Assembly: GCA_022705905.1 (NCBI GenBank)
Contig: JAKJDO010000003.1
Span: forward strand, 14,071-78,070
Direction of reading: 5' to 3'
DNA from: Patescibacteria group bacterium
GTDB taxonomy: Bacteria; Patescibacteriota; Patescibacteriia; Patescibacteriales; UBA12075
DNA: 64,000 bases
In this document: positions 10,494 to 45,155 of the stretch, one piece after another
How positions within the stretch are numbered: position 1 is the stretch's first letter
Layout of the letters: each line of letters starts with the position of its first letter
Notes under the pieces: model-generated
Database searches by the model: none
Seen by the model: the letters and a program-made list of their open reading frames with translations, nothing else
What the model was told of the DNA's origin: nothing
Program-made: the position numbers and the translations under genes

Positions 10494-10528
10494 ATGTTTG
10501 TGGTTATTATTATTTTTTTAGAATATCG

Positions 10529-10915: not shown

Positions 10916-10919
10916 ATAT

Positions 10920-11315: not shown

Positions 11316-11333
11316 ATTATCTTTATTAAATAT

Positions 11334-13619: not shown

Positions 13620-15117
13620 TTTCCTTTTTTAATTCTATCATTTTTAGCTCCCTGCCGATCATTAGCCTGTTCATTCTGGCCAGTTCTTCAGCTCTTTCTT
13701 TTTCTAGTCTTTCATTTTTTTTACGTTCGGTTATGTCCCTAACGATACCTATGGCATGCCAGCGGTTATCTAAGTTTGCTTTGGCTACGGTCAATTCGAT
13801 ATTAAATATCTCTCCGCTTTTTCTTTTTACCTCCACTTCAATGTTTTTGCCCAAGACATCTGACTCGCCAGTCTTGCCGAAGTTCAAAATATTTTCTTTT
13901 TTTTGGTGCTCTTTTTTTACTGTGATGATATTATGTAATTCTTTATTTTTAACCTCATCTTCTTGGTAGCCAAACATTTCTTCAGCTGCTTTGTTCCATA
14001 AAACAATCCTGCCTTTTTCGTCCATCATGATAATAGCATCCTTTGCCGCCTCAGTAATAACTCTGAATTTTTCTTCACTTTCTTTAATTTCTCTAGTTAT
14101 AGTTTTAGCGATATCAACTGCTCTTTTTTGAGAAATTGACAAAGAATAAACAAACAAAAAAATAAATACTCCGGAAATAATAAAAGCAGTTAAAGCTAGC
14201 CAAGGAGCGCTTTTTTCAAATTTATTTAAACCATATTGTGTATTGCCGTAGAAATTTATTTTCCAAGTTCTACCACCCAACTCCAGCTCGTCAGATCTAA
14301 TTAAATTTTTGTTATTGGTATCGTTATACGCGTATAATAAATTATTATCATCGTAAATCGTGAAAGCAAATTCCTTGTTGTCTAACTGGCTTTCGTTTAT
14401 TATATTGTTAAAAAATCTATCTATCTTAAAAGAAGCCATCGCAAATCCTAATAAGTTATTTTGTCTTTCCTCCTGGGTCTCCGTTGGTTTATTATTTTGA
14501 AAAATTGGTAGGACAATATTGAAAACTGGAGTATTATCTGTGGCTAATAAAATTTTTGGAGATAAAATCGGCCCATTGTCTATTACGGCCCTGTTCATTG
14601 TTTCAGTTCTAATCGGATCAGAATAAGAGTTGAAACCAAGTCCGGCCAGATTTTCTTTTTCTGGGTAGCCGTAAAGGGCAACCATATATTCTCTGTCTTC
14701 AGAGGCTGGAAAAATTTGAAAATTTTTATATCCTTCAGGATTTGTACTTATATCGTTTTTAACATTATCAGAAAAAAATTCTAATTCTTCCTTTAAAACC
14801 TTGCTATGGAAGCTAACAGAGCTTATGCCCGGATAATTATTTGCCAAATCTATTGTATTGGCGTATGATTCAAACTCATTTCTTTCCACGCTTTTACTGG
14901 CTGCATATAAACCCTTAAAGCCATAGAGCATATTTGTGTCTCTGTTTATCCTTAAATTTATTAGCGCTATTATTTCAAAAGCTTGGGCGTCAAATTTAGA
15001 TCGAGATTGCCACGACATATTCTTTTGAATGTAGTAAAAGCTGACAGCTCCGCCCCCAAGAAATAAAGCCAGCAATATAAAAGGTAATATTAGATTAACA
15101 GCGTATTCTTTTTTCAT
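13585..15117 (-). CDS. CHASE-domain / PAS sensor protein without transmitter domain
   Basis: 510 aa. TM, CHASE-like ectodomain (..ERNEFESYANTIDLANNYPGISSVSF..), second TM, PAS (FRVITEAAKDAIIMMDEKGRIVLWNKAAEEMFGY), then only a coiled-coil tail. Overlaps the kinase ORF by up to 35 nt. Confidence 0.75.
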   Translation of the reverse strand: MKKEYAVNLILPFILLALFLGGGAVSFYYIQKNMSWQSRSKFDAQAFEIIALINLRINRDTNMLYGFKGLYAASKSVERNEFESYANTIDLANNYPGISSVSFHSKVLKEELEFFSDNVKNDISTNPEGYKNFQIFPASEDREYMVALYGYPEKENLAGLGFNSYSDPIRTETMNRAVIDNGPILSPKILLATDNTPVFNIVLPIFQNNKPTETQEERQNNLLGFAMASFKIDRFFNNIINESQLDNKEFAFTIYDDNNLLYAYNDTNNKNLIRSDELELGGRTWKINFYGNTQYGLNKFEKSAPWLALTAFIISGVFIFLFVYSLSISQKRAVDIAKTITREIKESEEKFRVITEAAKDAIIMMDEKGRIVLWNKAAEEMFGYQEDEVKNKELHNIITVKKEHQKKENILNFGKTGESDVLGKNIEVEVKRKSGEIFNIELTVAKANLDNRWHAIGIVRDITERKKNERLEKERAEELARMNRLMIGRELKMIELKKEIEKFKKQKKDD

Positions 15118-15281: not shown

Positions 15282-15309
15282 TTGACAAAATAATAATATT
15301 TTATATAAT
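15282..15309 (+). promoter_or_regulatory. sigma70-type promoter of the 15340 mini-gene
   Basis: TTGACA (15282-87), 16-nt spacer, TATAAT (15304-09). AAGGAGG at 15327-33 lies 6 nt before the ATG. Confidence 0.6.
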
Positions 15310-15339
15310 AACGCTATCTTAAATAAAAGGAGGTCATAT

Positions 15340-15543
15340 ATGGCCGGAACTACGAGATCCAGTATCGGCGGTGGCGGAACCAGGGTAACTGATCACTATG
15401 ATGATGGTTCCAGTACGGACAGGGATTACGTCAAGGGCGATTGTGTCGCAATCACCGATCACGACCGGGATGGCAGTAGCCACACCCATGAAGTGAAGCA
15501 CGGGATTCTCGGCACCTACAAAGGAGACATCATCAAGAAGTAG
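15340..15543 (+). CDS. orphan 67-aa Asp/Gly/His-rich protein with internal duplication
   Basis: Perfect SD with its own promoter and terminators, and visibly GC-rich. Repeat VTDHYDDGSS / ITDHDRDGSS. No TM or signal peptide and no recognised family. Confidence 0.5.
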   Translation: MAGTTRSSIGGGGTRVTDHYDDGSSTDRDYVKGDCVAITDHDRDGSSHTHEVKHGILGTYKGDIIKK

Positions 15544-15573: not shown

Positions 15574-15637
15574 CCCCCGCTGCTTAAAGCGGGGGTTTAA
15601 TATGAGAAGAGTAAAACGTTTAGGAGACGTTTTTTTT
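15574..15637 (+). terminator. two tandem intrinsic terminators
   Basis: CCCCCGC-N8-GCGGGGG (15574-95), then AAACGT-TTAGGAG-ACGTTT followed by T8 (15614-37). Confidence 0.65.
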
Positions 15638-15774: not shown

Positions 15775-15951
15775 TTATTGATTGCGGGAATTTTTTTTAT
15801 TTTTTACCAGGCCGACAATACCAGTAATAGCCATTATTAATCCCAGTAACTGTCCTCCCGGGCTATCATCATATTCTCCGAATACAAACATAAATATACC
15901 AAGCAATATTAGTATAACAAAGCCTAGTATTTTGAAATATATTTTTTTCAT
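15775..15951 (-). CDS. 58-aa two-TM peptide (last gene of the membrane operon; absent from the ORF track)
   Basis: My own translation: MKKIYFKILGFVILILLGIFMFVFGEYDDSPGGQLLGLIMAITGIVGLVKNKKNSRNQ. It starts 19 nt after the stop of the 866-aa gene. Confidence 0.5.
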   Translation of the reverse strand: MKKIYFKILGFVILILLGIFMFVFGEYDDSPGGQLLGLIMAITGIVGLVKNKKNSRNQ

Positions 15952-15969
15952 ATTTGTTGTTACTTATAA

Positions 15970-18570
15970 TTAATAATTATTTTCTTCAGCGCTTCTATAC
16001 CCTGAATCCGAGAAGCACGCTCCTTTGCCGATCGAAGTCATTACGCTAGCCGGTATTCTTTCTTTATCCATTAACTCGCAAGGCGGACCTTCTTGCCCGA
16101 TATATATAACCCTGTAACTATCTCCTTCTTCTTTAAGAACGGCGGCTGATCCGGCTCTCCGGCCATGCATACCAATCTGGTAAAATGGATCGTCCTGGCT
16201 AATAACAGTTGCGACACTTTCTTTATTTTTCAAATCAAGTGCTTCCAAAAATGGTCTTTGCTTCGCTTGGCTTCCGGCCAAATCATTACCACAGGTTATC
16301 TCAATAGTATTGCACATAAACATATTTTCAGTACAACCGGATGAACCGTAATCCGGATCCACTCTGACCACACACAATTCATCGCCTTTCTCATAGGCTC
16401 TAACATAATCATAAAATTGCCTGTCAGTTTCATTGTCTGATGAGTTTCTTTCATTCAGATTAAATTCTCTAGCGGTCAACACTTCATCCGCAATATTCAA
16501 AACATCACGGGCGAAACTGGTCTCTGCAAAATTATCCGCTCCCGATCCATCGTCTTTGGCAATTTCAATCGATTCTATTCCCGGCACAATAATACTGTAT
16601 CCATCTTCATCATTCCACCACAAAGATGATTCGTCCATTTTACTAATTTCAATCTTCGAAATTGCCGTCTGCAATCTGGCCGACAATTCTTCAGTTATAG
16701 TAGAAGCTACAACTATGCTCTCTGTAATCTCGCCATATTCATCCGCATAAAGAGTGTCATTATAAAAAGAAACATGCAAAATATAATCACCGGCATCAAG
16801 CAAATAATTCACGTCCAATCCTCCGGAAAATCCAAAAACAAACTTTATTAATTTGATTTTATTTCCATTAATTTCCGTGTCTCTTTCTTCGTAATTCGGA
16901 TAGAGTTCTTTATCCTGCGCTTTTTCATGAAAATAATCCATTAATAATTTATACTCATCGCCCTTGGCAACTTTTTTCATTCTGAGCGAGGTGTAAATAA
17001 AGCCCTCGGGATTTTCTCGGTCCGGGTCATCAGGCGCGAATGGAGTTACCACGATATCAAAATTCGGCCCTAAATTTTCTGTCTCAATATAAAAATTATC
17101 AGGATACGAAAATGACAGTTTTAAATCCTTATCAAAATAATTCTTCTTCGAAACTTCTCCAAGAATGCTTTTTAGTATATATCTAAAATCATCTTGTCTA
17201 ATGTTGTGATCCGGCCTCCAAACATAATCAACATCAGTCGGCATTTCCTCGTCGCTAAAAACATCAAAAATCATATAATACGGTAGATTATTATATATTA
17301 TCCGATAACTATCCAGAACAGCGACCTGATGGGCTTTTGTTATTTTAATGTCTTTAGTTTTATAAATATATTCCGGTTTTTGACCGGCATCTTCAAAATC
17401 AAAGTCTTTTCTCATGGAGTTCGTATGCGCATCTTCTAAATACACAAGCAAGTAAACATCATGCTCCTTGTAATCTGTTTTGAAAAACAAACTGTTCGTA
17501 TCATTTATATCAGGAATTATTCCATGAATTTTTTCTTGGCTAAATCGGCCATCCTTTATCAGTTCTGAGTATGTTACACGGGGCATCCATGGGTGCTTGA
17601 TTCTGTTTAAAATTTCCATGGTGCCAGTCTGAGCCTCATGTTGGAGCCTTTGCATATTTGGATTAAGTAGCAGGCGCATTTCATATTCACTGACTTTCTC
17701 AATGTCAGCCGTCCGATATGTCAAACCGAATAAAGTATAGGCGGTGACCTGATAATTTTTTTCATCCATTCCGGTAATTGCCGTTTTTATGATTATTAGC
17801 TTTTCCAGAGGATTATCAAAAAATATCTTGGCCTGCTGTCTGGCATATAAACCTTCCAATGAGGTGGCGCCGGGGACATCAGTTTTTAAGCACTTAGGAA
17901 TATACGCACCGGAATATATGACCAATATCATAGCGCCGATGATTAATAATGCCCTGTTTGCATTCTTAAAGGCATTATCTTTTTTATTGTGACGAATGAT
18001 CCGGTAAGCAGAGTAAAGCCAGAGTATAAAAACAGCCGCCTCCAAATAATGCCTAGTAAGCGGATAATTCATCTTATACATTTCAAAATCAAGCATAATG
18101 TTAGATAAAATATCCGCAATCATTTGTAGAACTAAAACAGTGAATAATAGATACAAAATATTTAAAACCCATGTCTTTGTCCGGTTTGGTTTTGGCTCTG
18201 ACTCTGCTTCGGGAATAGATTTATCGAAACCGAATCTACGGCGCAGTTTGGATATCAGCCAGCCGATGAAATAACCGATAAAATAATATTGCGCGATTCC
18301 GACTATAAAAAGAAAAATAGTTTGGGGCATCAAATCCTCCACGCTACTGGGCAAAATCATTCTAAAAACCGACATTACAACTGTGCCAAAAAGCGGAAGT
18401 AAAATCGAAGATGGCATATGCAAAAACATCATTCCCATCAAACCTTCAGCTAAAGACGAGCCGCCAAAAAACCAGCTTCCTAAAAAGAATATCCAAAAAG
18501 ATAAATCAAGCCCTCCCAATACTAACCCAGTAATAACCGGCAATTTTAAATTTTTTATTTTACTCATCAT
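15970..18570 (-). CDS. large polytopic membrane protein with ~630-aa extracytoplasmic region, unknown function
   Basis: 866 aa. About 7 hydrophobic helices in residues 1-230, then a long soluble region with a Cys-containing C-terminal part. No family recognised. Confidence 0.75.
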   Translation of the reverse strand: MMSKIKNLKLPVITGLVLGGLDLSFWIFFLGSWFFGGSSLAEGLMGMMFLHMPSSILLPLFGTVVMSVFRMILPSSVEDLMPQTIFLFIVGIAQYYFIGYFIGWLISKLRRRFGFDKSIPEAESEPKPNRTKTWVLNILYLLFTVLVLQMIADILSNIMLDFEMYKMNYPLTRHYLEAAVFILWLYSAYRIIRHNKKDNAFKNANRALLIIGAMILVIYSGAYIPKCLKTDVPGATSLEGLYARQQAKIFFDNPLEKLIIIKTAITGMDEKNYQVTAYTLFGLTYRTADIEKVSEYEMRLLLNPNMQRLQHEAQTGTMEILNRIKHPWMPRVTYSELIKDGRFSQEKIHGIIPDINDTNSLFFKTDYKEHDVYLLVYLEDAHTNSMRKDFDFEDAGQKPEYIYKTKDIKITKAHQVAVLDSYRIIYNNLPYYMIFDVFSDEEMPTDVDYVWRPDHNIRQDDFRYILKSILGEVSKKNYFDKDLKLSFSYPDNFYIETENLGPNFDIVVTPFAPDDPDRENPEGFIYTSLRMKKVAKGDEYKLLMDYFHEKAQDKELYPNYEERDTEINGNKIKLIKFVFGFSGGLDVNYLLDAGDYILHVSFYNDTLYADEYGEITESIVVASTITEELSARLQTAISKIEISKMDESSLWWNDEDGYSIIVPGIESIEIAKDDGSGADNFAETSFARDVLNIADEVLTAREFNLNERNSSDNETDRQFYDYVRAYEKGDELCVVRVDPDYGSSGCTENMFMCNTIEITCGNDLAGSQAKQRPFLEALDLKNKESVATVISQDDPFYQIGMHGRRAGSAAVLKEEGDSYRVIYIGQEGPPCELMDKERIPASVMTSIGKGACFSDSGYRSAEENNY

Positions 18571-18576
18571 ATATTT

Positions 18577-20658
18577 TTATTCAGTCGCCATTCTAATTTC
18601 ACCGCACTTTTCTTTATATTGATCAACAATGTTAAAAATATAATCAATCTCGGGCTCTTGTGCGGTTACTTTCCTACCGTCTTTAAAAGTGGTCGTTACT
18701 TCCAAAGCATGGGTTTGCATAACTGATTCTATCTCGCAATCCGCAATAGCTTGTTTTATTAAATTCCAATTTGAAATATTGGTAAAAGCATAATCTTCAG
18801 CCCTTGCCTTTAACCGACCTACATCATAAGAAGATATTTTTTGCTGAACATCTTCCGGAAAGATGGCTTCAATATCCTCGGAATAAAGAGTTCCGTCTCT
18901 GGGGGCTTCATAGGAAAATTTACTCAAATCATAAAACGATAATTCATTCGGATAATCTATTTTAGCCGGTCCGGATAAACCACTAAGCATTTTTAATTTA
19001 CCATCTTCAATAACATATTCACCGCAATAAGCCCAAACATACAACGGAAATAATTCTTTATCTGGTTTTAAATTTTCGATGGTGCAAAAATTATGGCTGT
19101 CATCCCTGTTTTTCCAGCTAAAATGTTTTTGAATTTTAAGATAATTAGATATCGCTTTTTCGATTTGATCATTACCAAAATTATTGGCTGTTAAATCTTT
19201 TTCAAACTCGTCAAAATAATTCACAATGCCGGAGTTTACACCGGACCTCACATCCATATTATCCGTAACATAGACATTCAATCGGCTGGTATTAACAGCA
19301 TTAATAGTCGCCTCTTCTGCTATGAACTTATCCATCTCAACCCAACAATCACCAGAATTGATAACTAAATTTTTTGCTGACCCAGTCAAATTGATAATGC
19401 CGCCTTTAAGTTCAAGTTTTAAGGTATCCGCGACTTCAACATCACCTTTTATATTGTTAAATCTATGAGTCAGTCCTATTTCCAGATTATCAACTTCCAG
19501 ATTTTCCAATACCATATTAGCGCCTTCATTTTCAATCTTTTCAATATCCGGCATGGTTATCTCTATGGTTAAATGCTTGCTTCCGGCCCGAAACAAAATA
19601 TCCCTGTTCTCCACCGTCCAAGTATCGGTATTAAAAAAGGTTTCCAGCTCTGATCTTTTTATATTCAGAGTATCGCCGATCTTTTCAAAATTTAGGCCAA
19701 TGCGGTCATACTCACTGCCCTTGACTATAATATCGAAATTATCACCCTGCTTAATTATTACATCATCAAACTCAACGAAAGGCGATATATAAATATTCTT
19801 AAAATCTTTAATATCAACGTGACTCTCCTTGATATTTGCTTTCATTTCCGCTGTTTTAACATTAAATTCAGATGTTATATAAGTCGATAACATTGAAAAT
19901 ATCACAAGGGAAACATAAAAATATATTCTCAGTCGTAAAGCGAGTTTTTTATTAACAAATTTTTTTTCTAAAAATAATTTCAATCCCCAGTTCGCCAGAA
20001 ATGTCAGAGGTATAAGAATAATTGATAAAGCTGATACCAACAATAAATAATACTGAACAACTCCAAGTATCTCTATGAGCCTGAAATCAGCCATTATTAT
20101 ATTGAGCCAGGGGCTTGAAGGATTAAAAGACAAAACCAAAAAGACAATCAAAGAAATCAGTCCTCCCAATACGCTGATGCCGACAAAAAGACTTCCAAAT
20201 ATTTTTCTGAATGCAATAGTAATTTTTGAATTAGGATATTTTTTGAATTGTTCAGATGTCCCCCTGATAACCAAACCGATCAAACCGCCAAAAATTGAAA
20301 TTCCGAATATAGGCAAAAACAACTGCATCATTTCAAAAATATCAATAAACTGGCGATAAGCATAACCATGGCGAAAATATTCAGCTACCCCCAAAACCAA
20401 AACGATTGCAATATTATTCAGACATGACCCGATTAAAAGAGTTGGTAAAAACTGGTAGCTTCTGTTTTTGTTTTGGATTAATATCAATAAAATACCACTG
20501 ACAAGAGGCAGTATGAGAAATAAAACAAAAATAGCGGGAACAAAATCAAAAAATATCGAATCCAGCCCTCTGCGGGTTGAAGCTGCTATCAAAGTAACAA
20601 CCAGATTTAAAATCAAAAGCCAGCTAATTTTTTTTATAATATTTTTTAAAGATTCCAT
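18577..20658 (-). CDS. polytopic membrane protein with GIN/DUF2807-like beta-helical segment
   Basis: 693 aa. About 8 TM helices in residues 1-270. The middle segment (IIKQGDNFDIIVKGSEYDRIGLNFEKIGDTLNIK..LEVDNLEIGLT..LELKGGIINLTGSAKNLVINSGD) resembles the putative-adhesin head GIN domain. The C-terminal ~200 aa are unknown. Confidence 0.65.
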   Translation of the reverse strand: MESLKNIIKKISWLLILNLVVTLIAASTRRGLDSIFFDFVPAIFVLFLILPLVSGILLILIQNKNRSYQFLPTLLIGSCLNNIAIVLVLGVAEYFRHGYAYRQFIDIFEMMQLFLPIFGISIFGGLIGLVIRGTSEQFKKYPNSKITIAFRKIFGSLFVGISVLGGLISLIVFLVLSFNPSSPWLNIIMADFRLIEILGVVQYYLLLVSALSIILIPLTFLANWGLKLFLEKKFVNKKLALRLRIYFYVSLVIFSMLSTYITSEFNVKTAEMKANIKESHVDIKDFKNIYISPFVEFDDVIIKQGDNFDIIVKGSEYDRIGLNFEKIGDTLNIKRSELETFFNTDTWTVENRDILFRAGSKHLTIEITMPDIEKIENEGANMVLENLEVDNLEIGLTHRFNNIKGDVEVADTLKLELKGGIINLTGSAKNLVINSGDCWVEMDKFIAEEATINAVNTSRLNVYVTDNMDVRSGVNSGIVNYFDEFEKDLTANNFGNDQIEKAISNYLKIQKHFSWKNRDDSHNFCTIENLKPDKELFPLYVWAYCGEYVIEDGKLKMLSGLSGPAKIDYPNELSFYDLSKFSYEAPRDGTLYSEDIEAIFPEDVQQKISSYDVGRLKARAEDYAFTNISNWNLIKQAIADCEIESVMQTHALEVTTTFKDGRKVTAQEPEIDYIFNIVDQYKEKCGEIRMATE

Positions 20659-21055
20659 AAATAAATATAAATAATAAATAACCTATAATAACCCCTAATG
20701 AATTAAGAATAATATCATCAATATCCAATATCCCCGACTTAAAAATGACTTGCAATAACTCCAATATTATTCCGATAAACAGACCGACTAACAATGCTCT
20801 TCCCCATTTATTTTTATGATACCGAAGAGCAAACAAGAAACCTAAAGGAACTAAAACGATAACGTTACCCAATAAATTACGCATCGCAATTTTCCATGTC
20901 GGCTCGCCAGAAAGATAACCTAAAATCGTTTTAAATGGTAATAAATTGGCATTGGCAATGCTGAATGTCATACCAGGCGGATATTTAAAAACAATCAGTC
21001 TGAGAATCAATGCAGTATAAATAACTAAAATAATATATAAATATTTTTTCTTCAT
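20624..21055 (-). CDS. VanZ-like family membrane protein
   Basis: 143 aa, 4 TM. NLLGNVIVLVPLGFLF and ILELLQV..DIDDIILNSLGVIIGY match the VanZ pattern. Confidence 0.75.
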   Translation of the reverse strand: MKKKYLYIILVIYTALILRLIVFKYPPGMTFSIANANLLPFKTILGYLSGEPTWKIAMRNLLGNVIVLVPLGFLFALRYHKNKWGRALLVGLFIGIILELLQVIFKSGILDIDDIILNSLGVIIGYLLFIFIYGIFKKYYKKN

Positions 21056-21057
21056 AT

Positions 21058-21888
21058 TTACTCAGTAATTAATTTTTTAGAAAGCGAACTATCCATCCTC
21101 TCTATATACAATTTGTCATCTTCTACTCTTAAATCATTATAGTTTCCAAGATCTTGCCTAAAAATTTTTTCTATTTTATTATTCTCTAAATCCCAAATAA
21201 ACAAATAGCCGTCACGCTCGCCTAACGGTGTTCCCCAAAAAGCCAATTTTTTATTATTGCCAAAAAATAATATTGGCTGATAGCCTGGTCTCATTCCGAC
21301 GCTTATAAGCTGGACGCCTAAAATTGGCTCAAGACTCATCTCAAGGTCAGCACTAATTATTGTTTCCCCCTGCCAGCTTCTCTTAAATATCTCGTTCCCA
21401 GAAATATAGAAATACCCGCTCTCATCCGGCGCCACGGCTATGATGTTACCACCAATATGTATTTCCTCTATCGTGTTCTCGCTTTCGGATTTCGGTGAGC
21501 GATGAACCACATATCCGCTTTCCATTGATGAAAAATTTGGATCGCTATATGCAATCAAAGCAAAATCTTCACCGCTATGAATAAGCCGAATACTGCCGAC
21601 CTCACCTTTTAATTTATATTCTGTATTCGGCGCATCATTTTTCCTGTCATGAATATTGATAATCGTTATCTTTTCTTTATTCCACAACCACGGGTTATAT
21701 TGATAGGCCTTTAACCAAAGTCCAGCGGCGGCATCATTTGCCACTTCTTTAATTTCTGGAAAATATAATTTTTCTGCCAGCACAAAACTAAATACACCCG
21801 CACCAATAACAGCGGAAAGGATAATAACTATAACCAGCTTTAGTGATTTGATCATAAAATATAATAGACACCTTGCTCTGCTAATCAA
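21058..21888 (-). CDS. signal-anchored exported protein, unknown function
   Basis: 276 aa. A single N-terminal TM, then a beta-rich-looking ectodomain. No family recognised. Confidence 0.65.
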   Translation of the reverse strand: MISRARCLLYFMIKSLKLVIVIILSAVIGAGVFSFVLAEKLYFPEIKEVANDAAAGLWLKAYQYNPWLWNKEKITIINIHDRKNDAPNTEYKLKGEVGSIRLIHSGEDFALIAYSDPNFSSMESGYVVHRSPKSESENTIEEIHIGGNIIAVAPDESGYFYISGNEIFKRSWQGETIISADLEMSLEPILGVQLISVGMRPGYQPILFFGNNKKLAFWGTPLGERDGYLFIWDLENNKIEKIFRQDLGNYNDLRVEDDKLYIERMDSSLSKKLITE

Positions 21889-22381
21889 AAGCTATAAGCA
21901 ACATGCCCAGACCGGACAAATTTATTATTATATAGATCACCAATAGCCATGTCTTGACTTTTCTATTATTCAAAAATCTATTTTTAGCCAAAAGACTGAC
22001 AAGCAAAGCACTTATGATAAGCCATATAAGATAATTTAAGTAGAACGGCTTCCACATTGAAAGCGGGACATAATCGCCACCCATAGCGCCACAAGGATAA
22101 GTGAATATCTGGAGTGGCCAGCCTGCCTCTGAGCAAGCCGTCAAATCCGCGCTTATCGGGATACTCCGCCGACTTAAAAAAATCGCGGTCCAAAGCAAAA
22201 TCGAAGACAGATTAATAACCCAGTAATAAATATTCCTGATCCTGCCTTTCATCGGCTTCCAAATCAAAAACAATATAAGTTGCAGAACAACAAATATCTT
22301 GGAAAACAACATCACGTAAATCGACATAAAAGGCAAAAACAACAGGGAAGAAATTGAAATAAACGGAACTAAATAATCCAT
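21881..22381 (-). CDS. four-TM membrane protein, unknown function
   Basis: 166 aa, hydrophobic, with a Cys-containing loop (CSEAGWPLQIFTYPCG). Overlaps the next gene by 8 nt. Confidence 0.6.
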   Translation of the reverse strand: MDYLVPFISISSLLFLPFMSIYVMLFSKIFVVLQLILFLIWKPMKGRIRNIYYWVINLSSILLWTAIFLSRRSIPISADLTACSEAGWPLQIFTYPCGAMGGDYVPLSMWKPFYLNYLIWLIISALLVSLLAKNRFLNNRKVKTWLLVIYIIINLSGLGMLLIAFD

Positions 22382-22382
22382 A

Positions 22383-23123
22383 TTAATTGGTAAATAAACT
22401 CAAATTATTATAATAACTAATCAGCTTGCCACCACTGCTCATAATAACCCTGACTCTCGGATTTTCTCCGCTCCAGCCTTCCGGCCAGGCATATTCATCA
22501 TCCTGCCAAGACCATTCATTGGCCGCCGGAGAATTAACCGGATCTTTTTTGCTGGGCGTATAAATCAATTCATCTTTTATCTTGTCAAAATCAGTCACTC
22601 CTCTTTGTAGATAAGTTAATGCGCTCGCTTCGATTTCCGCCTTAGATTTCAATGGAACCTCTAATGACTCATAATCGTCGCATTTTATAGGTCCATCGCC
22701 AGTCGGCGCCTGATTCTGGATTTCTTCGGGATAGACGATATGCACTTCAACCAGTTGATTTGAATCGACTGATACTTCATATTCATAAACTTCACAGCGG
22801 TCATTAATATATTCTTCCTGTTGAAAAACATAAACCGGCCGCTTCCATTCTGGCGGCGTGTCGATCTTAAAAGCACCGTCATCAATTACGGTAGTTTTTC
22901 CCACGGTGAAATTAGAAGGGTTTTTGCTCGTTGATATATATTCCAATTTTAAATCAGGAACATTCATAAATTCCCTGATCGCCTTTTCAGCCTTACTTCT
23001 GTCTATTTCAGATTGTTGGTTTTCAACTTCAGGAGAAATTTTCATGCTCTGCGGTTGAGTTTGGGTGCAGGCGGTTAACGGAAATACGAGGATAAAAAGA
23101 AATAATATTTTTTTCAATTCCAT
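22383..23123 (-). CDS. lipoprotein, unknown function (first gene of the operon)
   Basis: 246 aa. Signal peptide with lipobox LTAC. Two segments look faintly PepSY-like (AEKAIREF.., KAEIEASALTYL..). Confidence 0.65.
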   Translation of the reverse strand: MELKKILFLFILVFPLTACTQTQPQSMKISPEVENQQSEIDRSKAEKAIREFMNVPDLKLEYISTSKNPSNFTVGKTTVIDDGAFKIDTPPEWKRPVYVFQQEEYINDRCEVYEYEVSVDSNQLVEVHIVYPEEIQNQAPTGDGPIKCDDYESLEVPLKSKAEIEASALTYLQRGVTDFDKIKDELIYTPSKKDPVNSPAANEWSWQDDEYAWPEGWSGENPRVRVIMSSGGKLISYYNNLSLFTN

Positions 23124-23140: not shown

Positions 23141-23181
23141 TTATTTTAGCACAATTATTAATCGTGTCTTTATTTTAGCAC
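23141..23181 (-). promoter_or_regulatory. duplicated 12-bp box containing extended -10 (GTGCTAAAATAA x2)
   Basis: TTATTTTAGCAC occurs at 23141-52 and 23170-81 on the + strand. On the minus strand this reads TGcTAAAAT, 18 and 47 nt upstream of the operon ATG. Confidence 0.4.
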
Positions 23182-23240
23182 TTTTTAACATAATTCTAAA
23201 GAAAAACTGCATAACATAGGAAGTTAGTGTGTTCATAGCA

Positions 23241-23286: not shown

Positions 23287-23310
23287 TCTGTTTACACGCT
23301 TTTTATCAAG

Positions 23311-23382
23311 CACCGCTACGGGGAATCGAACCCCGGTTTTAAGGATGAAAACCTCATGTCCTAACCACTAGACGATAGCGGC
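23311..23382 (-). tRNA. tRNA-Glu (anticodon UUC)
   Basis: Manual cloverleaf: GCCGCTA acceptor (G1-U72), D-arm GTCT-AGTGGTTA-GGAC, anticodon stem TGAGG/CCTTA with loop TTTTCAT, T-arm CGGGG-TTCGATT-CCCCG, discriminator G. No encoded CCA. Confidence 0.9.
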
Positions 23383-23383
23383 A

Positions 23384-23629
23384 TTAATTTTTAAATCTAT
23401 CAATTAATTCTTTTTTTCTAAAGCTATTGTTCTTTAACTCTAGTTCTCGTTTCCGAGCTAGAGTTTTGTTCGCGTACGCTTCAAAATATATTAGCTTAAA
23501 TGGTATTTTATGTTTTATTGATTTCGTTTTTCCTTGATTATGTTCGGTGATTCTTTTCTGCAAATTCTCAGTATAACCAATATAATGACTCCCGTCTAGT
23601 AAGCTCCGAATTAAATAAACAAACCACAT
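23384..23629 (-). CDS. small GIY-YIG nuclease superfamily protein (COG2827/URI-domain type)
   Basis: 81 aa. VYLIRS..GSHYIGYTENLQKRITEHN..K.. pattern with the conserved Arg/Glu region. The stop codon lies 1 nt from the 5' end of tRNA-Glu. Confidence 0.85.
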   Translation of the reverse strand: MWFVYLIRSLLDGSHYIGYTENLQKRITEHNQGKTKSIKHKIPFKLIYFEAYANKTLARKRELELKNNSFRKKELIDRFKN

Positions 23630-23635
23630 ATTTTT

Positions 23636-23670
23636 GTCAGGATGCCAGCCAAAGGCTGGTCAACCTCTGG
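23636..23670. repeat. GC hairpin element (GTCAGGATG-CCAGCC-AAA-GGCTGG)
   Basis: CCAGCC/GGCTGG stem at 23645-59. The GTCAGGATG terminus resembles the palindromic family termini. Confidence 0.45.
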
Positions 23671-23709
23671 TTGAAAAACCTCATGTCCTAACCACTAGAC
23701 GAAGGGACC
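23671..23709 (-). pseudogene. truncated tRNA 5' half (tRNA-Glu-like, positions 1 to about 38)
   Basis: The minus strand reads GGTCCCTTCGTCTAGTGGTTAGGACATGAGGTTTTTCA. 28 nt (23675-23702) are identical to 23348-23375 of the intact tRNA-Glu. No anticodon-stem 3' strand, T-arm or matching AGGGACC 3' acceptor strand was found nearby. Confidence 0.6.
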
Positions 23710-23893
23710 AAACATTAATTTTCGAATTTTATAATTTCCAATTTCCAAAACGAATATGAAAAGTAAAAAATAAAGCCTTCGCGAGAAAGCTAAGTTTAAT
23801 ATAAACTAAAATTATAAAAATGTCAATATTTGATTGTTAAAGCAATAAAGGCTACTATAAAAATAGTAAATAGTAAAAGTCGAGGAGGGCGCC

Positions 23894-24133
23894 ATGAATG
23901 GTACAGTTAAATATTTTGTGCTCATTGAGTCATGCGATCCTATTTTCCCGGTGCTGGCTTCTTTGTTTTTAGGAGATGATCATTCTTTGCCGTGTTTTGA
24001 ATATGAGATCGGCACACCAACTTCTGAATTTAATTCAAAACAGTATCTTCGGGAAATATCTAAGTACCGTCAAGTTGTCGGGGTGGTCGGCGAGACAAAT
24101 AACATTCCGATCAACTTGATGATCATGCGCTAG
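23894..24133 (+). CDS. orphan 79-aa protein
   Basis: GAGGAGGG at 23882-89, 4 nt before the ATG. Strong hairpin terminator directly after the stop. No family recognised. Confidence 0.45.
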   Translation: MNGTVKYFVLIESCDPIFPVLASLFLGDDHSLPCFEYEIGTPTSEFNSKQYLREISKYRQVVGVVGETNNIPINLMIMR

Positions 24134-24146
24134 CTCGCTGCTTTTC

Positions 24147-24174
24147 GAAGGTTCGTTGTTTCTAACGAACCTTC
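24147..24174. terminator. bidirectional intrinsic terminator
   Basis: GAAGGTTCGTT-GTTTCT-AACGAACCTTC, an 11-bp perfect stem between convergent genes. Confidence 0.7.
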
Positions 24175-24176
24175 AT

Positions 24177-25283
24177 TTATTTTAAAGTAATCGCCACAAT
24201 TTCTGGAGTATTGCCAATTCGAATCGGCGGGCCCCAAGTGCCAGCGCCATTAGAAGTATAACTAGTATAATTATTTTCGACATGCAATCCGTTGTGATAT
24301 CGTTTATAAATCAGCCAAGTAAAAAATTGAAAAGGAAATTGTTGACCGCGATGAGTATGCCCAGCTAGTTGTAAATCTATGCCCGCCGCTTTTGCTAATT
24401 CAGTGTATCGCGGTTCATGATGCAGAAAAATATTAGCTTCTTCCGGTTTTACTCTTTTCATTAACTCCGCCACGCCTTGTTTATTTCCAAGATCGCTAGT
24501 AAAATCAGCGCCAATAATATTTAAGCCATTGATGTTTGCTATTTCATCCTTTAAAATTTTAACGCCCGCCTCTTGCAAGGCTTGATCGGCCCCTCGCTCA
24601 CCGATATAAGATTCATGATTGCCGTTAATAAATAATACCCCATACTTGCTGTCAATGCTTTTTAACGGATCTGTTAGCGAATTATATTCAGACAAAGAGC
24701 CGTCAAAGTAATCTCCGCCGATTAAAATTAATTCAGGCTCGACTAAATTTATTTGCTTAACAATTTTTTTTATGAAGGGAGTTCGATTAACTGCTCCCAA
24801 ATGAATATCTGAAACAAAAACAATTTTTTTATTTTGCCATTGCGACGGCAAATTTTTTATATTCACAACAATATTTTTTAGCCGTGGATTTTGCGCGTTC
24901 CATATCCCATAGGTAGAAATGGCGATAGTAGCAACAAATAATACTGACAATATAGTTTTAAAATCCAAATTTATACCAAAATATTTTACAAAGAAATAAA
25001 AAAGCCAGCAAATGATACTGGCTAAAAATAAATTAACTAAAAAGCCATGCCAAGTGGACACGGTGATATAAAGCCAGCGAATCAGAAGCGCGTTGGAGGC
25101 ATGCGCTAGTAGCATACTTGCAAGCAAAGAGAGGGAGAGGATAATAGTTGTGGTGAGTAAAATTATTCTAGTTTGAGAATTGGTGATATTAAAAAATTTT
25201 ACTATGGTATAGTAAACTAAATAATGCCCGCCGAATATTACGGAAAGAAATATTAGTAAGATGGGAATAAAAATTAAGCGCAT
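24177..25283 (-). CDS. membrane-anchored metallophosphoesterase (calcineurin-like)
   Basis: 368 aa. About 4 N-terminal TM helices, then SDIHLG, GGDYFDG, NGNHE and GHTHRGQ motifs. Confidence 0.85.
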   Translation of the reverse strand: MRLIFIPILLIFLSVIFGGHYLVYYTIVKFFNITNSQTRIILLTTTIILSLSLLASMLLAHASNALLIRWLYITVSTWHGFLVNLFLASIICWLFYFFVKYFGINLDFKTILSVLFVATIAISTYGIWNAQNPRLKNIVVNIKNLPSQWQNKKIVFVSDIHLGAVNRTPFIKKIVKQINLVEPELILIGGDYFDGSLSEYNSLTDPLKSIDSKYGVLFINGNHESYIGERGADQALQEAGVKILKDEIANINGLNIIGADFTSDLGNKQGVAELMKRVKPEEANIFLHHEPRYTELAKAAGIDLQLAGHTHRGQQFPFQFFTWLIYKRYHNGLHVENNYTSYTSNGAGTWGPPIRIGNTPEIVAITLK

Positions 25284-25294
25284 TTTCTTGCTTT

Positions 25295-25378
25295 GTCATT
25301 CCCGCCTGTCTACCGATAGGCAGGCGAAAGCGGGAATCTATAATATTGAAATTAATCCCGGCCAAATGCCGGGATGAC
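25295..25378. repeat. 84-bp palindromic element, same family as 8788-8904
   Basis: GTCATTCCCGC-CTGTCTACCGATAGGCAG-GCGAAAGCGGGAATC ... GATTAATCCCGGCCAAATGCCGGGATGAC. It accounts for the spurious 63-aa ORF 25189..25380. Confidence 0.7.
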
Positions 25379-25385
25379 AACGTTG

Positions 25386-26459
25386 TTATTTTAATTGTTG
25401 CTTAAACCAATCGACCCAGGGTATTTTTACCGGATCGATATTATTTAACATACCAAGATAAAAACTTACCCAAGCTCCGAACTGTAGCAGTTCAAATGAT
25501 TGTATTATTTTGTTATCTCCGCCTAGCTCATGGCTAAAAACTTTAACACCATTTTTTTTAACCACCTCCTTAGTTAGCCGGCTGCGTTTTTGGATGCGAG
25601 GGCGGTATAATCTTGAATCAAAAAAAACAAAAGCCAAAGATCTTTTGCCTTCTTTGGGATTAGCCAATCCTTCCATGGCAAAATGATTTAAGTCGGGCAG
25701 GCTTAAATAGGTAGCGAAGTTTTTTGACGACTCACAGAAAATATTACGAAGTGCCCGAATCGTCCCTAGCGTGAATTCAGCGCCGACAAAGACTGGAATT
25801 TTATTTTCTAGTTCACGAGCTAATTTTTTGGCTTTATTTTTTGTCTGCGATGTTTCTGGCCTAAGCAAGCGGTTCCAAATTTCTAAACTGGCGATTAGAT
25901 CTTCAATCTCTCGGACTTTAATTTTAAAGAGGCCAGCTTTAGCAAGCAGGACGGCGATGCCAAAAATCATATAACCGCTACCAAGACGCGGCTGGCCGGA
26001 TGGATTAAAATTTGGTTTAAAAATATAGCCGGGAACATTATCCTTTATCATTAATTTTTCTAGTGGGTTTTTATTACCATGGGCTGTTAGCCCCATAATT
26101 TTTGCGCCGCGTTTTTTGGCTTCTCGATAAGTGCTTAATGGTTCTTCGGTGCCGCCAGAATATGACGAGATGATGTATAGAGTATTTTTATCAACATGAT
26201 GGGGCACAAAATATCCAGGAATTATGCTAACAGGAACTTTAATTTGATCGCTCCAAGCCGATTTAGCAATACCGGCACCGATATTTGAACCGCCCATGCC
26301 ATTAATAACAACGTTAGTAATTTTGCTGTAATCAGTCGGAATTTTTATCAGTCGCGCATCGTCTAGAACCTCACGGATTTGATCAGGGAGCAATTGGATT
26401 GATTTAGCCACTTGTCCGGAGTCTAATTGGCTAATTTTTTTTAAGTCATCTAAATTCAT
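25386..26459 (-). CDS. bifunctional phosphoglucose/phosphomannose isomerase (SIS-domain, archaeal type)
   Basis: 357 aa. Two SIS-like halves (INGMGGSNIG; ISSYSGGTEE), with size and layout of PGI/PMI-family enzymes. Confidence 0.7.
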   Translation of the reverse strand: MNLDDLKKISQLDSGQVAKSIQLLPDQIREVLDDARLIKIPTDYSKITNVVINGMGGSNIGAGIAKSAWSDQIKVPVSIIPGYFVPHHVDKNTLYIISSYSGGTEEPLSTYREAKKRGAKIMGLTAHGNKNPLEKLMIKDNVPGYIFKPNFNPSGQPRLGSGYMIFGIAVLLAKAGLFKIKVREIEDLIASLEIWNRLLRPETSQTKNKAKKLARELENKIPVFVGAEFTLGTIRALRNIFCESSKNFATYLSLPDLNHFAMEGLANPKEGKRSLAFVFFDSRLYRPRIQKRSRLTKEVVKKNGVKVFSHELGGDNKIIQSFELLQFGAWVSFYLGMLNNIDPVKIPWVDWFKQQLK

Positions 26460-26646
26460 ATAGTTAGTTAAAAGTTATAAAGTTGAAAGTTTATAAAGTT
26501 TTAATGTTCGTAGGTAGTTATATTATAACATAATTAAATTTTTATGTTTATTTTATTTTTTTGTCTTGATTTTATCAATTGATTATGTTATAGTAGAAGC
26601 GTCAGGCGAACCCTGACTTAATTTTTAAAAACTAAAATATCACTTT

Positions 26647-41406: not shown

Positions 41407-41429
41407 GCTAAGTTTAAGTTTTGATTATT

Positions 41430-44084: not shown

Positions 44085-44116
44085 TTTTTTAATTTAGCAA
44101 TTTCTAAATTAATTTT

Positions 44117-45066: not shown

Positions 45067-45155
45067 GATATTCCTCCTTAGTCTATTCAATTTTTAGTAT
45101 TTCATCTTAATACATATATCTTTTTAGGTCAATAACGTAATAAAAATAAAAAATT

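What the first reader, a model, noticed from the sequence alone, without database searches (positions are those of the whole stretch)
15775..23123. Seven-gene operon made only of membrane/exported proteins of unknown function, next to tRNA-Glu
Seven co-directional minus-strand ORFs are separated by about 1-20 nt or overlap, which suggests a single transcript. In order they are: a lipoprotein (LTAC lipobox); a 4-TM protein; a signal-anchored 276-aa protein; a VanZ-like protein; a 693-aa polytopic protein with a GIN/DUF2807-like beta-helical ectodomain; an 866-aa polytopic protein with a ~630-aa Cys-containing ectodomain; and a 58-aa 2-TM peptide that the ORF track misses. I see no ATPase, enzyme motif, regulator or known secretion/pilus component, and only two weak family resemblances. 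The block is bounded by a tRNA gene with signs of rearrangement on one side and by an SD-led orphan cassette on the other. In a reduced, probably episymbiotic genome, 7.3 kb devoted to an uncharacterised envelope complex is a good candidate for a new cell-surface, attachment or envelope-maintenance system.
Basis: partly seen in the sequence, partly recalled or inferred. Interest (0 to 1): 0.6.

Follow-up and report, generated by a model that had tools for sequence, protein, structure and literature searches.

The report
Shuffled envelope-protein operon around a Toastrack hub
This is a real seven-gene operon of membrane and exported proteins in a Parcubacteria (CPR) genome, but it is a lineage-specific assortment of modules around one conserved LiaF-like membrane protein with an outward-facing beta-helix plus a VanZ protein, not a wholly unknown or fixed seven-part machine.

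Summary
The seven co-directional minus-strand genes exist as described. They have a promoter-like site upstream and a strong terminator hairpin downstream. They are not family-less. Gene 4 is a VanZ-1 (Lipocone) protein with its DxDDxxxN motif intact. Gene 5 is a 7-TM protein whose last helices resemble the LiaI-LiaF-TM/PspC region, followed by a DUF2807/Toastrack beta-helix. Foldseek matches that helix to 3PET and 4OPW. Charge bias in 46 of 46 homologues, and fusions to a domain that elsewhere follows lipoprotein signals, place the helix outside the cell. Gene 5 is a fusion, because its last 213 residues are a separate gene's C-terminus in relatives. Gene 6 is a mosaic of a TM module, a PsbP-like domain and an unannotated exported domain with an invariant Cys pair (about 250 clusters). 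The seven-gene block is not conserved, but each gene recurs beside the core in other Patescibacteria, in other orders or as fusions. The closest relative keeps genes 1, 2, 4, 5 and part of 6. Best reading: an envelope hub linked to lipid-carrier or cell-wall homeostasis or sensing. Function is inferred. It is a new variant of a known kind, of moderate interest.

The parts
23143..23200 (-). Promoter-like region of the operon (two overlapping -35/-10 candidates, both with a TG extension), downstream of the terminator-like hairpin that follows tRNA-Glu
   Evidence: Consensus scan, 9/12 matches each; sequence read. This is weak evidence, because the number of such sites in the region equals the shuffled expectation.
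22383..23123 (-). Gene 1: 246-aa lipoprotein (lipobox LTAC, Cys19) with an acidic ectodomain. No family assigned.
   Evidence: Homologues sit next to the core gene in L021 (51% identity) and L032 (85%).
21881..22381 (-). Gene 2: 166-aa polytopic membrane protein (4-5 hydrophobic segments, 42-residue loop with 2 Cys). No family assigned.
   Evidence: Homologues lie upstream of the core gene in L012, L013, L020 and L032.
21058..21855 (-). Gene 3: 265-aa signal-anchored exported protein (the ATG start is preferred; the TTG at 21888 would give 276 aa). It belongs to a highly conserved Patescibacteria family without annotation.
   Evidence: 95 homologues at 35-87% identity, all about 265 aa, and none carries a Pfam domain. 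The alignment shows invariant residues in both the anchor helix and the ectodomain. It lies directly after the core gene in L028 and L033, but elsewhere in L029 and L030.
20624..21055 (-). Gene 4: 143-aa VanZ-like protein of VanZ-1 type. Motifs: DIDDIILN at residues 111-118 and ELLQ at 99-102.
   Evidence: Pfam VanZ 2.1e-23, 83.7 bits against a cutoff of 30.1. Motifs found; motif definition from PMC12419801. It is far below the NCBIfam cutoffs for resistance VanZ-A/F/Pt. It overlaps gene 5 by 35 nt, and the same overlap is seen in L005 and L032.
19834..20658 (-). Gene 5, residues 1-275: seven-helix transmembrane domain. Helices 5-7 resemble the LiaI-LiaF-TM/PspC TM region.
   Evidence: AF2 helices at 2-27, 42-60, 67-96, 107-140, 145-178, 200-230 and 237-274, with pLDDT mostly 65-92 (one 10-residue block at 38). 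PF22571 scores E = 4e-4 in the window protein, below the cutoff. 17 of 46 homologues hit it at E <= 0.01, best 4.4e-6. K+R bias is 14.1 inside against 3.3 outside, and holds in 46/46 homologues.
19219..19833 (-). Gene 5, residues 276-480: DUF2807/GIN = Toastrack right-handed beta-helix, predicted to be extracytoplasmic. Invariant motifs include SGDCWxEMD and TSRLN.
   Evidence: Pfam DUF2807 6.2e-17 and DUF4097 2.7e-3. Foldseek hits 3pet, 3jx8, 3lyc, 4opw and 4ygu at E 1e-6 to 1e-4, and 4qrk at 5e-3. Invariant columns.
18577..19218 (-). Gene 5, residues 481-693: C-terminal exported domain (4 Cys). In relatives it is the C-terminus of a separate downstream membrane protein, so the window gene is a fusion.
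   Evidence: 72-80% identity to the C-termini of 313-453-aa proteins encoded after the core gene in L006/7, L009, L010/11, L013 and L015, plus a partial match (residues 626-693, 57%) in L027. The AF2 model is poor here, with pLDDT below 40.
17881..18570 (-). Gene 6, residues 1-230: polytopic TM module that also exists as a stand-alone protein of about 215-225 aa.
   Evidence: Stand-alone homologues P0069, P0110 and P0117. Present next to the core gene in L023 and L032. AF2 helices.
17164..17880 (-). Gene 6, residues 231-469: alpha/beta ectodomain found only in close relatives.
   Evidence: pLDDT mostly 70-91.
16705..17163 (-). Gene 6, residues 470-622: PsbP/Mog1/DcrB-like domain.
   Evidence: Foldseek hits to PsbP/CyanoP (6e-4), Mog1p, DcrB and MTC28. 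The stand-alone homologue P0095 passes the Pfam PsbP_2 cutoff, 33.2 against 27 bits. Foldseek reports no query ranges, so assigning the fold match to these residues rests on the sequence homologues.
15970..16704 (-). Gene 6, residues 623-866: unannotated exported domain with an invariant C-terminal Cys pair (C831, C852) and a WW..DGY motif.
   Evidence: Most of the 279 profile hits cover only this region; they are typically 260-320-aa proteins. Many carry signal anchors or lipoboxes. The domain is fused directly after the Toastrack domain in Komeilibacteria P0034/P0043. It has no Pfam hit. AF2 pLDDT is above 90, with no confident PDB or BFVD match that can be attributed to this domain; all confident (high-probability) Foldseek hits were PsbP/DcrB-like folds, although Foldseek reports no query ranges.
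15775..15951 (-). Gene 7: 58-aa peptide with two TM segments.
   Evidence: Called independently on L001-L003. A 37%-identical ORF holds the equivalent position in L015. Unrelated 65-74-aa two-TM ORFs follow the core gene in L009-L011, L014 and L016.
15574..15595 (-). Intrinsic-terminator-like hairpin that ends the operon. It is shared with the convergent 67-aa gene.
   Evidence: Stem of 8 pairs, 7 of them G-C, then a T-rich tail.

Best explanation
The operon encodes a cell-envelope module built around a hub protein, gene 5. A seven-helix anchor related to the LiaI-LiaF-TM/PspC region holds a rigid DUF2807/Toastrack beta-helix on the outer face of the cytoplasmic membrane. The flat faces of that helix act as a docking platform for exported partner domains. 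These partners are either fused to the hub (gene 5 C-terminal domain here; the gene 6 Cys-pair domain in Komeilibacteria) or encoded next to it (lipoprotein gene 1, anchored gene 3, the gene 6 ectodomains, and the small TM proteins genes 2 and 7). A VanZ-1 Lipocone protein with an intact predicted active site is translationally coupled to the hub. VanZ-1 is proposed in the literature to act on head groups of undecaprenyl-linked wall or polysaccharide precursors. The module therefore most likely monitors or organises lipid-carrier-dependent envelope (wall or surface-polymer) assembly, by analogy with LiaF, VraT and PspC-Toastrack proteins, rather than acting as a host adhesin. Shown here: gene structure, family and fold assignments, the fusions, and the recurrent neighbourhood. 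Inferred here: outward topology (two independent lines of evidence), the docking role, the link to lipid-carrier metabolism, and any signalling output.
For: Gene 5 carries DUF2807 above the Pfam cutoff and DUF4097 more weakly. Its fold matches 3PET, 4OPW and 4QRK; 4OPW and 4QRK are the Toastrack exemplars named in PMC11237479. PF22571 hits 17 of 46 family members. That paper describes Toastrack C-terminal to PspC, LiaI-LiaF-TM or other multi-TM domains and proposes a protein-docking role. Outward topology rests on 7 modelled helices, a K+R bias of 14.1 against 3.3 in 46/46 homologues, and direct fusion of the helix to a domain that elsewhere follows lipoprotein or secretion signals and has an invariant Cys pair. 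The hub behaviour is shown by every other gene of the operon recurring within a few genes of a core homologue in other genomes. Gene 1 recurs in L021 and L032; gene 2 in L012, L013, L020 and L032; gene 3 in L028 and L033; VanZ in L005, L018, L020 and L032; gene 6 parts in L005, L006, L008, L013, L018/19, L023, L027 and L032; gene 7 in L015. The core is 48-81% identical across the family, while the accessory genes turn over even between close relatives. The VanZ-1 motifs are conserved in four operons, and the 35-nt VanZ/core overlap is conserved in L005 and L032. Other neighbours of core homologues include DUF218 (5 loci), YceG/MltG (2 loci) and a glycosyltransferase. In the closest relative, L032, an OmpR-type regulator and a PAS kinase follow directly on the same strand.
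Against: There is no experimental datum for any member. PF22571 is below its gathering score in the window protein. LiaF-type Toastrack domains are predicted to be cytoplasmic (PMC11237479), so this family would be inverted relative to its best-studied analogue. VanZ accompanies the core in only about 5 of roughly 22 loci, and DUF218, YceG and sigma factors in 2-5 each, while most neighbours are unannotated. In the window the kinase genes are cut off from the operon by a terminator and a convergent gene, and kinases are absent from most other loci. No PspA, LiaS or LiaR was seen in the operon or its +/-10 kb flanks. The VanZ enzymology itself is a published prediction, not a demonstrated activity.
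Confidence: 0.4

Rival explanations
1. The operon is a surface attachment apparatus. The outward beta-helix and the rapidly changing ectodomains (gene 5 C-terminal domain, gene 6, genes 1 and 3) bind a host cell or substrate, serving the episymbiotic life style.
For: The DUF2807 beta-helix is the fold of Bacteroidales 'putative adhesins'. One such protein, PGN_1547, is needed for biofilm formation and host-cell attachment in P. gingivalis (PMC10949514). The helix is predicted to be outside. Accessory ectodomains are shuffled between close relatives, and codon usage is atypical, as is common for variable surface loci.
Against: The helix is unusually conserved, at 48-81% identity with long invariant motifs, across genomes from very different habitats. 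That fits a conserved self partner better than host-specific binding. Gene 3 is also 65-87% identical across dozens of lineages. No pilus, sortase, LPXTG or S-layer component is present. The helix sits directly on the membrane, about 200 residues long, beneath any wall.
Confidence: 0.2
2. The operon is a LiaFSR/VraTSR-like three-component signalling input. The Toastrack membrane protein controls the neighbouring PAS histidine kinase and receiver proteins, and the other genes belong to the regulon or are co-sensors.
For: The architecture resembles LiaF/VraT (PMC11237479). Kinase and receiver genes lie 650 nt downstream in the window. In L032 they lie immediately downstream on the same strand, and in L031 within 3 kb.
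Against: In the window a terminator and a convergent gene separate the two blocks. The window's receivers have no DNA-binding domain, and the kinases are PAS/CHASE-type rather than LiaS-like intramembrane sensors. No kinase or receiver family ranks among recurrent neighbours in the other 18 loci. An outward Toastrack domain could not contact a cytoplasmic kinase domain the way LiaF is thought to.
Confidence: 0.15
3. There is no common function. The genes are co-transcribed merely because small CPR genomes pack unrelated membrane-protein genes together, and the block is a flexible island that collects exported proteins.
For: The seven-gene order is unique to this organism. Gene 3 occurs away from the core gene in L029 and L030. 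A transposase, a restriction-modification system and a recombinase sit next to core homologues in L031 and L005. Codon usage deviates from the rest of the window.
Against: Two independent domain fusions join the core to gene-5C and gene-6C modules. All six other genes recur beside core homologues, although a 20-kb locus is only about 2% of a 1-Mb genome. The VanZ/core overlap is conserved.
Confidence: 0.15

Closest known systems
LiaF / VraT (YvqF) and PspC-Toastrack proteins of the Lia/Psp envelope stress systems (Ravi et al. 2024, PMC11237479)
   Same: An N-terminal multi-TM region with similarity to the LiaI-LiaF-TM/PspC TM model, followed by a C-terminal Toastrack beta-helix. Operon partners are small membrane proteins. 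Kinase and regulator genes lie nearby in the window and in L032.
   Different: Seven helices instead of four. The Toastrack subtype is DUF2807, not DUF2154. The beta-helix is predicted to be outside the membrane rather than cytoplasmic. No LiaS/LiaR-type pair is in the operon and no PspA or LiaI/LiaH is present. PF22571 is below its cutoff in the window protein.
Bacteroidales DUF2807/GIN 'putative adhesins' (PDB 3PET, 3JX8, 3LYC, 4OPW, 4YGU; P. gingivalis PGN_1547)
   Same: Same Pfam family and fold for residues 276-480. The location is extracytoplasmic.
   Different: Those are soluble or lipid-anchored single-domain proteins of about 170-250 aa. Here the domain is the ectodomain of a conserved 7-TM protein and carries further fused domains. 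Sequence identity to them is 10-16%.
VanZ-1 family of the Lipocone superfamily (Burroughs et al. 2025, PMC12419801); VanZ of the vanA teicoplanin-resistance cluster
   Same: Gene 4 matches Pfam VanZ end to end and keeps the VanZ-1 DxDDxxxN and ExxQ motifs.
   Different: It scores 35-42 bits against NCBIfam cutoffs of 250-375 for resistance VanZ-A/F/Pt, so it is a generic VanZ-like protein. No van genes, flippase or MraY-like transferase are in the operon. The published Patescibacteria VanZ operon is a VanZ-2 with an ABC transporter, a peptidase and Lamin-tail proteins, which is not this one.
PsbP / Mog1p / DcrB / MTC28 fold (Pfam PsbP_2)
   Same: Residues about 470-622 of gene 6, by fold match and through stand-alone homologues that pass the PsbP_2 cutoff.
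   Different: Here the domain is embedded in an 866-aa polytopic mosaic protein. The window protein itself gives no Pfam hit.

Membership tests
DUF2807 / GIN domain (Toastrack superfamily) | Pfam PF10988 match above the gathering score | tested here: met
   62.4 bits against a cutoff of 24.2, residues 298-472. All 46 aligned homologues match.
DUF2807 / GIN domain (Toastrack superfamily) | [quoted passage not shown] | tested here: met
   The AF2 model has pLDDT mostly 80-92 over residues 276-480, except for a low-confidence insert at 340-359. Foldseek gives 3pet 1.5e-6, 4opw 1.2e-5 and 4qrk 5e-3.
LiaI-LiaF-TM / PspC transmembrane region (PF22571) | Profile match above the gathering score in the TM region preceding the Toastrack domain | tested here: inconclusive
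   The window protein scores 20.6 bits against a cutoff of 27 (E = 4e-4; residues 150-265 on profile positions 30-142). 17 of 46 homologues hit at E <= 0.01, best 4.4e-6. 4 of 60 carry the precomputed annotation.
LiaFSR / VraTSR three-component system | Co-operonic cognate histidine kinase (LiaS/VraS type) and REC-HTH regulator | tested here: not met
   The operon ends at a terminator. The downstream genes are CHASE-PAS, a PAS kinase and three REC-only proteins. No kinase or receiver family ranks among recurrent neighbours in 18 other loci. Only L032 has an OmpR-type regulator plus a PAS kinase directly downstream.
LiaFSR / VraTSR three-component system | Cytoplasmic location of the Toastrack domain | tested here: not met
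   Prediction only. Seven helices, positive-inside bias in 46/46, and fusion to a domain found behind lipoprotein signals all place it outside.
Phage-shock-protein (Psp) system | PspA/IM30 or a PspC domain (PF04024) in the neighbourhood | tested here: not met
   No such Pfam hit in the seven proteins, in the flanking genes scanned, or in the precomputed annotation of +/-10 kb.
VanZ-like family (VanZ-1 clade of Lipocone) | Pfam VanZ above cutoff, plus the H4 motif DxDDxxxN and H3 motif ExxQ | tested here: met
   83.7 bits against 30.1. DIDDIILN at 111-118 and ELLQ at 99-102, conserved in L005, L018 and L020. Motif definition from PMC12419801.
Glycopeptide-resistance VanZ (VanZ-A / -F / -Pt) | NCBIfam exception-model score above cutoff | tested here: not met
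   35-42 bits against cutoffs of 250-375.
PsbP_2 (PsbP-like) | Pfam PF18933 above cutoff, or a PsbP-like fold | tested here: inconclusive
   The window protein has no Pfam hit. Homologue P0095 scores 33.2 against 27 bits, while P0141 and P0146 fall just below. Foldseek gives PsbP/CyanoP at 6e-4 with probability 1.00. The query range of the fold match is not reported.
Known anti-phage defence systems (PADLOC) | Any model hit | tested here: not met
   Only one chance-level hit (Cas8b, E = 0.011) among eight proteins.
Bacterial lipoprotein (gene 1) | Signal peptide ending in the lipobox [LVI][ASTVI][GAS]C | tested here: met
   MELKKILFLFILVFPLTAC, Cys19. The Pfam LPAM_1 hit is only weak. Acylation is not testable here.

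The most novel reading that the evidence does not exclude
A previously undescribed envelope apparatus specific to some Patescibacteria. A LiaF-related protein has been turned inside-out so that its Toastrack beta-helix works outside the cell. There it acts as a universal socket for a rapidly exchanging repertoire of exported domains, including an unannotated Cys-pair domain family (about 250 clusters) and the highly conserved gene-3 family. This would couple wall-precursor chemistry (VanZ-1) to the cell surface. It could be the way these wall-dependent, biosynthetically poor cells sense or exploit their host or environment.
Probability: 0.2. Interest if true: 0.65.

Novelty: new variant of a known kind. 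Interest (0 to 1): 0.4.

Why it matters
CPR/Patescibacteria genomes are full of unannotated membrane proteins, and almost nothing is known about how their envelopes are built or sensed. This locus offers a concrete, testable entry point. It has one strongly conserved hub protein with a recognisable architecture, two natural fusions that name its partners, and three unannotated families that could be defined as new domains: the gene-3 family, the Cys-pair domain and the gene-6 TM module. It also bears on the general claim that Toastrack domains are intracellular, because this family and the Bacteroidales DUF2807 proteins argue for an extracytoplasmic branch. Without experiments the function stays inferred, and none of the component folds is unprecedented.

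Tried and rejected
- PADLOC gave no defence-system hit.
- NCBIfam gave nothing beyond sub-threshold VanZ models.
- PDB sequence searches with profiles of the gene-5 core, gene 6 and the gene-3 family, and with gene 1, found nothing meaningful.
- Foldseek of the gene-6 model against viral structures gave no hit at E <= 1e-3.
- I tested whether the most frequent neighbour family in other genomes ('fam1', about 300 aa, 9 loci) is a diverged gene-3 homologue. HMM-versus-sequence and profile-profile comparisons were negative, with hhalign probability 0.8%.
- All-against-all BLAST of the operon's domains showed no internal paralogy.
- A scan of viral contigs for the Cys-pair domain could not be run, because the alignment has no stretch conserved enough.
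- Gene 5 as an assembly or frameshift artefact was rejected. The identical gene-6 protein is encoded on 13 contigs from ENA, JGI and Logan assemblies, and all four places read carry the same 693-aa gene 5.
- Foreign origin judged from G+C was rejected, since G+C is ordinary. Codon usage is atypical, however, so lateral exchange among relatives or low expression remains open.

Full report
OBSERVATION

Transcription runs from 23123 down to 15775. The genes are:
- gene 1: 246-aa lipoprotein with the LTAC lipobox
- gene 2: 166-aa polytopic protein
- gene 3: signal-anchored protein
- gene 4: 143-aa VanZ-like protein
- gene 5: 693 aa
- gene 6: 866 aa
- gene 7: 58-aa peptide with two TM segments

Gaps between the genes are 1-25 nt or overlaps of 8 and 35 nt. 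Independent gene callers recover the same seven genes on 13 contigs from ENA, JGI and Logan assemblies. They start gene 3 at the ATG at 21855, giving 265 aa, which is also the length of nearly all of its 95 homologues. A terminator-like hairpin follows tRNA-Glu, and two promoter-like sites with TG extensions precede gene 1. A G+C-rich hairpin with a T tail at 15595-15574 closes the operon and faces a convergent 67-aa gene. G+C content is ordinary. Synonymous codon usage is not: RSCU r = 0.75 to the other genes of the window, against 0.925 +/- 0.028 (minimum 0.81) for random gene sets of the same size. The difference lies mainly in Arg and Gly codons. The identical gene-3 product is named in NCBI as a protein of 'Parcubacteria group bacterium ADurb.Bin316', so the CPR assignment holds.

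GENE 4 (VanZ)

Gene 4 matches Pfam VanZ end to end, at 83.7 bits against a cutoff of 30.1. It is far below the NCBIfam cutoffs for the resistance proteins VanZ-A, -F and -Pt. It carries DIDDIILN at residues 111-118 and ELLQ at 99-102, and both are conserved in the VanZ genes next to core homologues in L005, L018 and L020. These are the DxDDxxxN and ExxQ signatures of the VanZ-1 clade of the Lipocone superfamily. Burroughs et al. predict, but have not shown, that this clade acts on head groups of lipid-carrier-linked peptidoglycan or exopolysaccharide precursors (PMC12419801).

GENE 5 (the hub)

Pfam finds DUF2807 (6e-17), the Toastrack model DUF4097 (3e-3) and, below its cutoff, the LiaI-LiaF-TM/PspC TM model PF22571 (4e-4, residues 150-265). 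Of 46 aligned homologues, all hit DUF2807, 17 hit PF22571 (best 4.4e-6) and 15 hit DUF4097.

An AlphaFold2 model built on 46 sequences shows seven TM helices followed by a beta-helix over residues 276-480, with pLDDT mostly 80-92. Foldseek matches the beta-helix to the Bacteroidales DUF2807 structures 3PET, 3JX8, 3LYC, 4OPW and 4YGU (E from 1e-6 to 1e-4) and to 4QRK (5e-3). 4OPW and 4QRK are the structures Ravi et al. use to define Toastrack. Those authors report that Toastrack typically sits C-terminal to PspC, LiaI-LiaF-TM or other multi-TM domains, and they propose that it is a docking surface (PMC11237479). Gene 5 therefore belongs to a described architectural class.

TOPOLOGY

Ravi et al. 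predict that Toastrack is intracellular. Two independent arguments put it outside in this family.
- With seven helices, the K/R-rich segments (N-terminus, 61-66, 133-153, 226-244) fall on one side and the helix on the other. Summed K+R is 14.1 against 3.3, and the bias holds in 46 of 46 homologues.
- In Komeilibacteria the helix is followed directly, with no intervening TM segment, by the C-terminal domain of gene 6. That domain elsewhere sits behind signal anchors or lipoprotein signals (LVGCSS, LLSACSQ, ILAACSS, LLTGCSS) and has an invariant Cys pair.

This is inference, not measurement. If it is right, the family is an outward-facing relative of LiaF-like proteins. In location it is closer to the Bacteroidales DUF2807 lipoproteins.

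GENE 5 IS A FUSION

Residues 1-485 correspond to a free-standing family of 470-490-aa proteins. The search returned 60 clusters at 48-81% identity, all from Patescibacteria. The alignment has long invariant motifs such as SGDCWxEMD and TSRLN. Residues 481-693 are 72-80% identical to the C-terminus of a separate 313-453-aa membrane protein encoded just after the core gene in L006/7, L009, L010/11, L013 and L015, with a partial match (residues 626-693, 57%) in L027. The window has lost that protein's TM part and joined the exported domain to the helix. The same sequence on 13 contigs excludes an assembly artefact.

GENE 6 (a mosaic)

The word-based search found only five close relatives. An exhaustive profile search found 279 proteins, nearly all matching only one part of gene 6.
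- Residues 1-220 form a TM module that also exists as stand-alone proteins of about 215-225 aa.
- Residues 231-469 occur only in close relatives.
- Residues 470-622 recur in small signal-anchored proteins. One of them passes the Pfam PsbP_2 cutoff.
- Residues 623-866 recur in most of the hits, typically 260-320-aa exported proteins with no Pfam domain.

The AF2 model is good, with mean pLDDT 83.6 and above 90 in the last domain. Foldseek finds PsbP/CyanoP (6e-4), Mog1p, DcrB and MTC28, in keeping with the PsbP_2 relatives. All confident (high-probability) PDB and BFVD hits were PsbP/DcrB-like folds, so none can be attributed to the Cys-pair domain, although Foldseek reports no query ranges.

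GENES 1, 2, 3 AND 7

None has a Pfam, NCBIfam, PADLOC or PDB relative. Gene 3 nevertheless belongs to a strikingly conserved family. Most of its 95 clusters are 65-87% identical, and invariant residues occur in both the anchor helix and the ectodomain.

SYNTENY

A motif-based scan of 185,579 species genomes returned 20 loci with a core homologue, all Patescibacteria MAGs, though some records carry wrong taxon labels. The count is a lower bound because the two search patterns were strict. Further contigs came from exact look-ups. The seven-gene order is found only in this organism. Even so, every gene recurs beside a core homologue somewhere:
- gene 1 in L021 and L032
- gene 2 in L012, L013, L020 and L032
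- gene 3 directly after the core in L028 and L033 (but elsewhere in L029 and L030)
- VanZ in L005, L018, L020 and L032, with a partial match in L026
- parts of gene 6 in L005, L006, L008, L013, L023, L027 and L032, and fused to the core in L018/L019
- gene 7 in L015

The closest relative, L032, keeps gene 1 (85%), gene 2 (89%), VanZ (93%), the core (72%), a 248-aa protein and only the TM module of gene 6 (68%). L031, whose core is 81% identical, has none of the accessory genes and has a transposase next door.

Other recurrent neighbours of the core are an unannotated 300-aa anchored protein (9 loci), DUF218 (5 loci), YceG/MltG, DUF3160 and sigma-70 (2 loci each), and a glycosyltransferase. A 20-kb locus is about 2% of a 1-Mb genome. 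These recurrences, together with two independent fusions and a conserved 35-nt VanZ/core overlap, therefore argue for real functional linkage with the core as the hub. The census was not done genome-wide, so it is not a formal statistic.

MECHANISM

The best-supported reading is an envelope module in which the hub's outward beta-helix docks exported partner domains, fused or encoded nearby. It would work together with a VanZ-1 protein in lipid-carrier-dependent wall or surface-polymer homeostasis or its sensing.

The analogy is with LiaF/VraT and PspC-Toastrack proteins, which respond to interference with the lipid II cycle. This point comes from established knowledge and PMC11237479 and was not tested here. 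The strong conservation of the helix and of gene 3 favours a conserved self partner over a host ligand.

Attachment remains possible, because DUF2807 proteins include a demonstrated P. gingivalis adhesin (PMC10949514) and the accessory ectodomains turn over quickly.

A LiaFSR-like link to the neighbouring kinases is suggested by the window, L032 and L031. It is weakened by the terminator and convergent gene in the window, by the REC-only receivers, by the absence of kinases among recurrent neighbours in the other loci, and by the outward topology.

VERDICT

This is not a family-less, self-contained new system. It is a lineage-specific combination of modules around a known architectural class (multi-TM plus Toastrack) and a VanZ-1 protein. 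The unusual features are the outward orientation, two natural fusions, and at least three unannotated but well-populated families. I rate it a new variant of a known kind with moderate interest (0.4). The function is inferred only.

Noticed in passing
window 23310-23725 (-): A truncated tRNA-like 5' half at about 23655-23720 shares a perfect 28-nt repeat (TCGTCTAGTGGTTAGGACATGAGGTTTT) with the intact tRNA-Glu(UUC) at 23310-23382. An 81-aa GIY-YIG gene (23384-23629) lies exactly between the two copies, and its stop codon abuts the tRNA 5' end. This looks like the footprint of a homing-endonuclease or mobile-element insertion into a tRNA gene.
   Followed up: partly
window 15282-15543 (+): A convergent 67-aa ORF has a perfect sigma-70 consensus promoter (TTGACA-16-TATAAT) and a strong Shine-Dalgarno sequence. 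Its G+C is 0.53 and GC3 0.62, against 0.38 and 0.35 for the window's genes. The Gly/Asp/His/Thr-rich product has no Pfam or PADLOC hit. It is present on the same organism's other contigs.
   Followed up: partly
window 10104-15117 (-): A signalling block lies downstream of the operon: a CHASE-PAS membrane protein with no output domain, a PAS-PAS histidine kinase whose start overlaps it, and three consecutive receiver-only proteins. Its codon usage is also atypical.
   Followed up: partly
window ~24000-26650: The cumulative GC skew reaches its minimum here, and gene orientation switches from minus to plus at 26459/26647. This is compatible with a replication origin nearby.
   Followed up: no
window 62793-62861 (-): Rfam match to the DUF3800-IX RNA motif, 57.2 bits against a gathering score of 36.8.
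   Followed up: no
window 41421-55203 (+): Four large ORFs on the same strand, of similar size (887, 909, 878 and 866 aa), lie within 14 kb, separated by a few small ORFs. They were not examined and may be paralogues.
   Followed up: no
L008-L033 (related loci): An unannotated ~300-aa signal-anchored protein family ('fam1') is 53-84% identical between genomes and has conserved Cys residues and a PD40-like 'FSPD..RLA' motif. It lies directly upstream of the core gene in 9 loci, often followed by a DUF218 protein. The window lacks both.
   Followed up: partly
L005 5301-7995; L031 8727-9698: Mobile or defence genes sit immediately next to core homologues: a DpnII-type restriction-modification system with a serine recombinase in L005, and an IS110 transposase in L031. 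This suggests the neighbourhood is a recombination-prone region.
   Followed up: no
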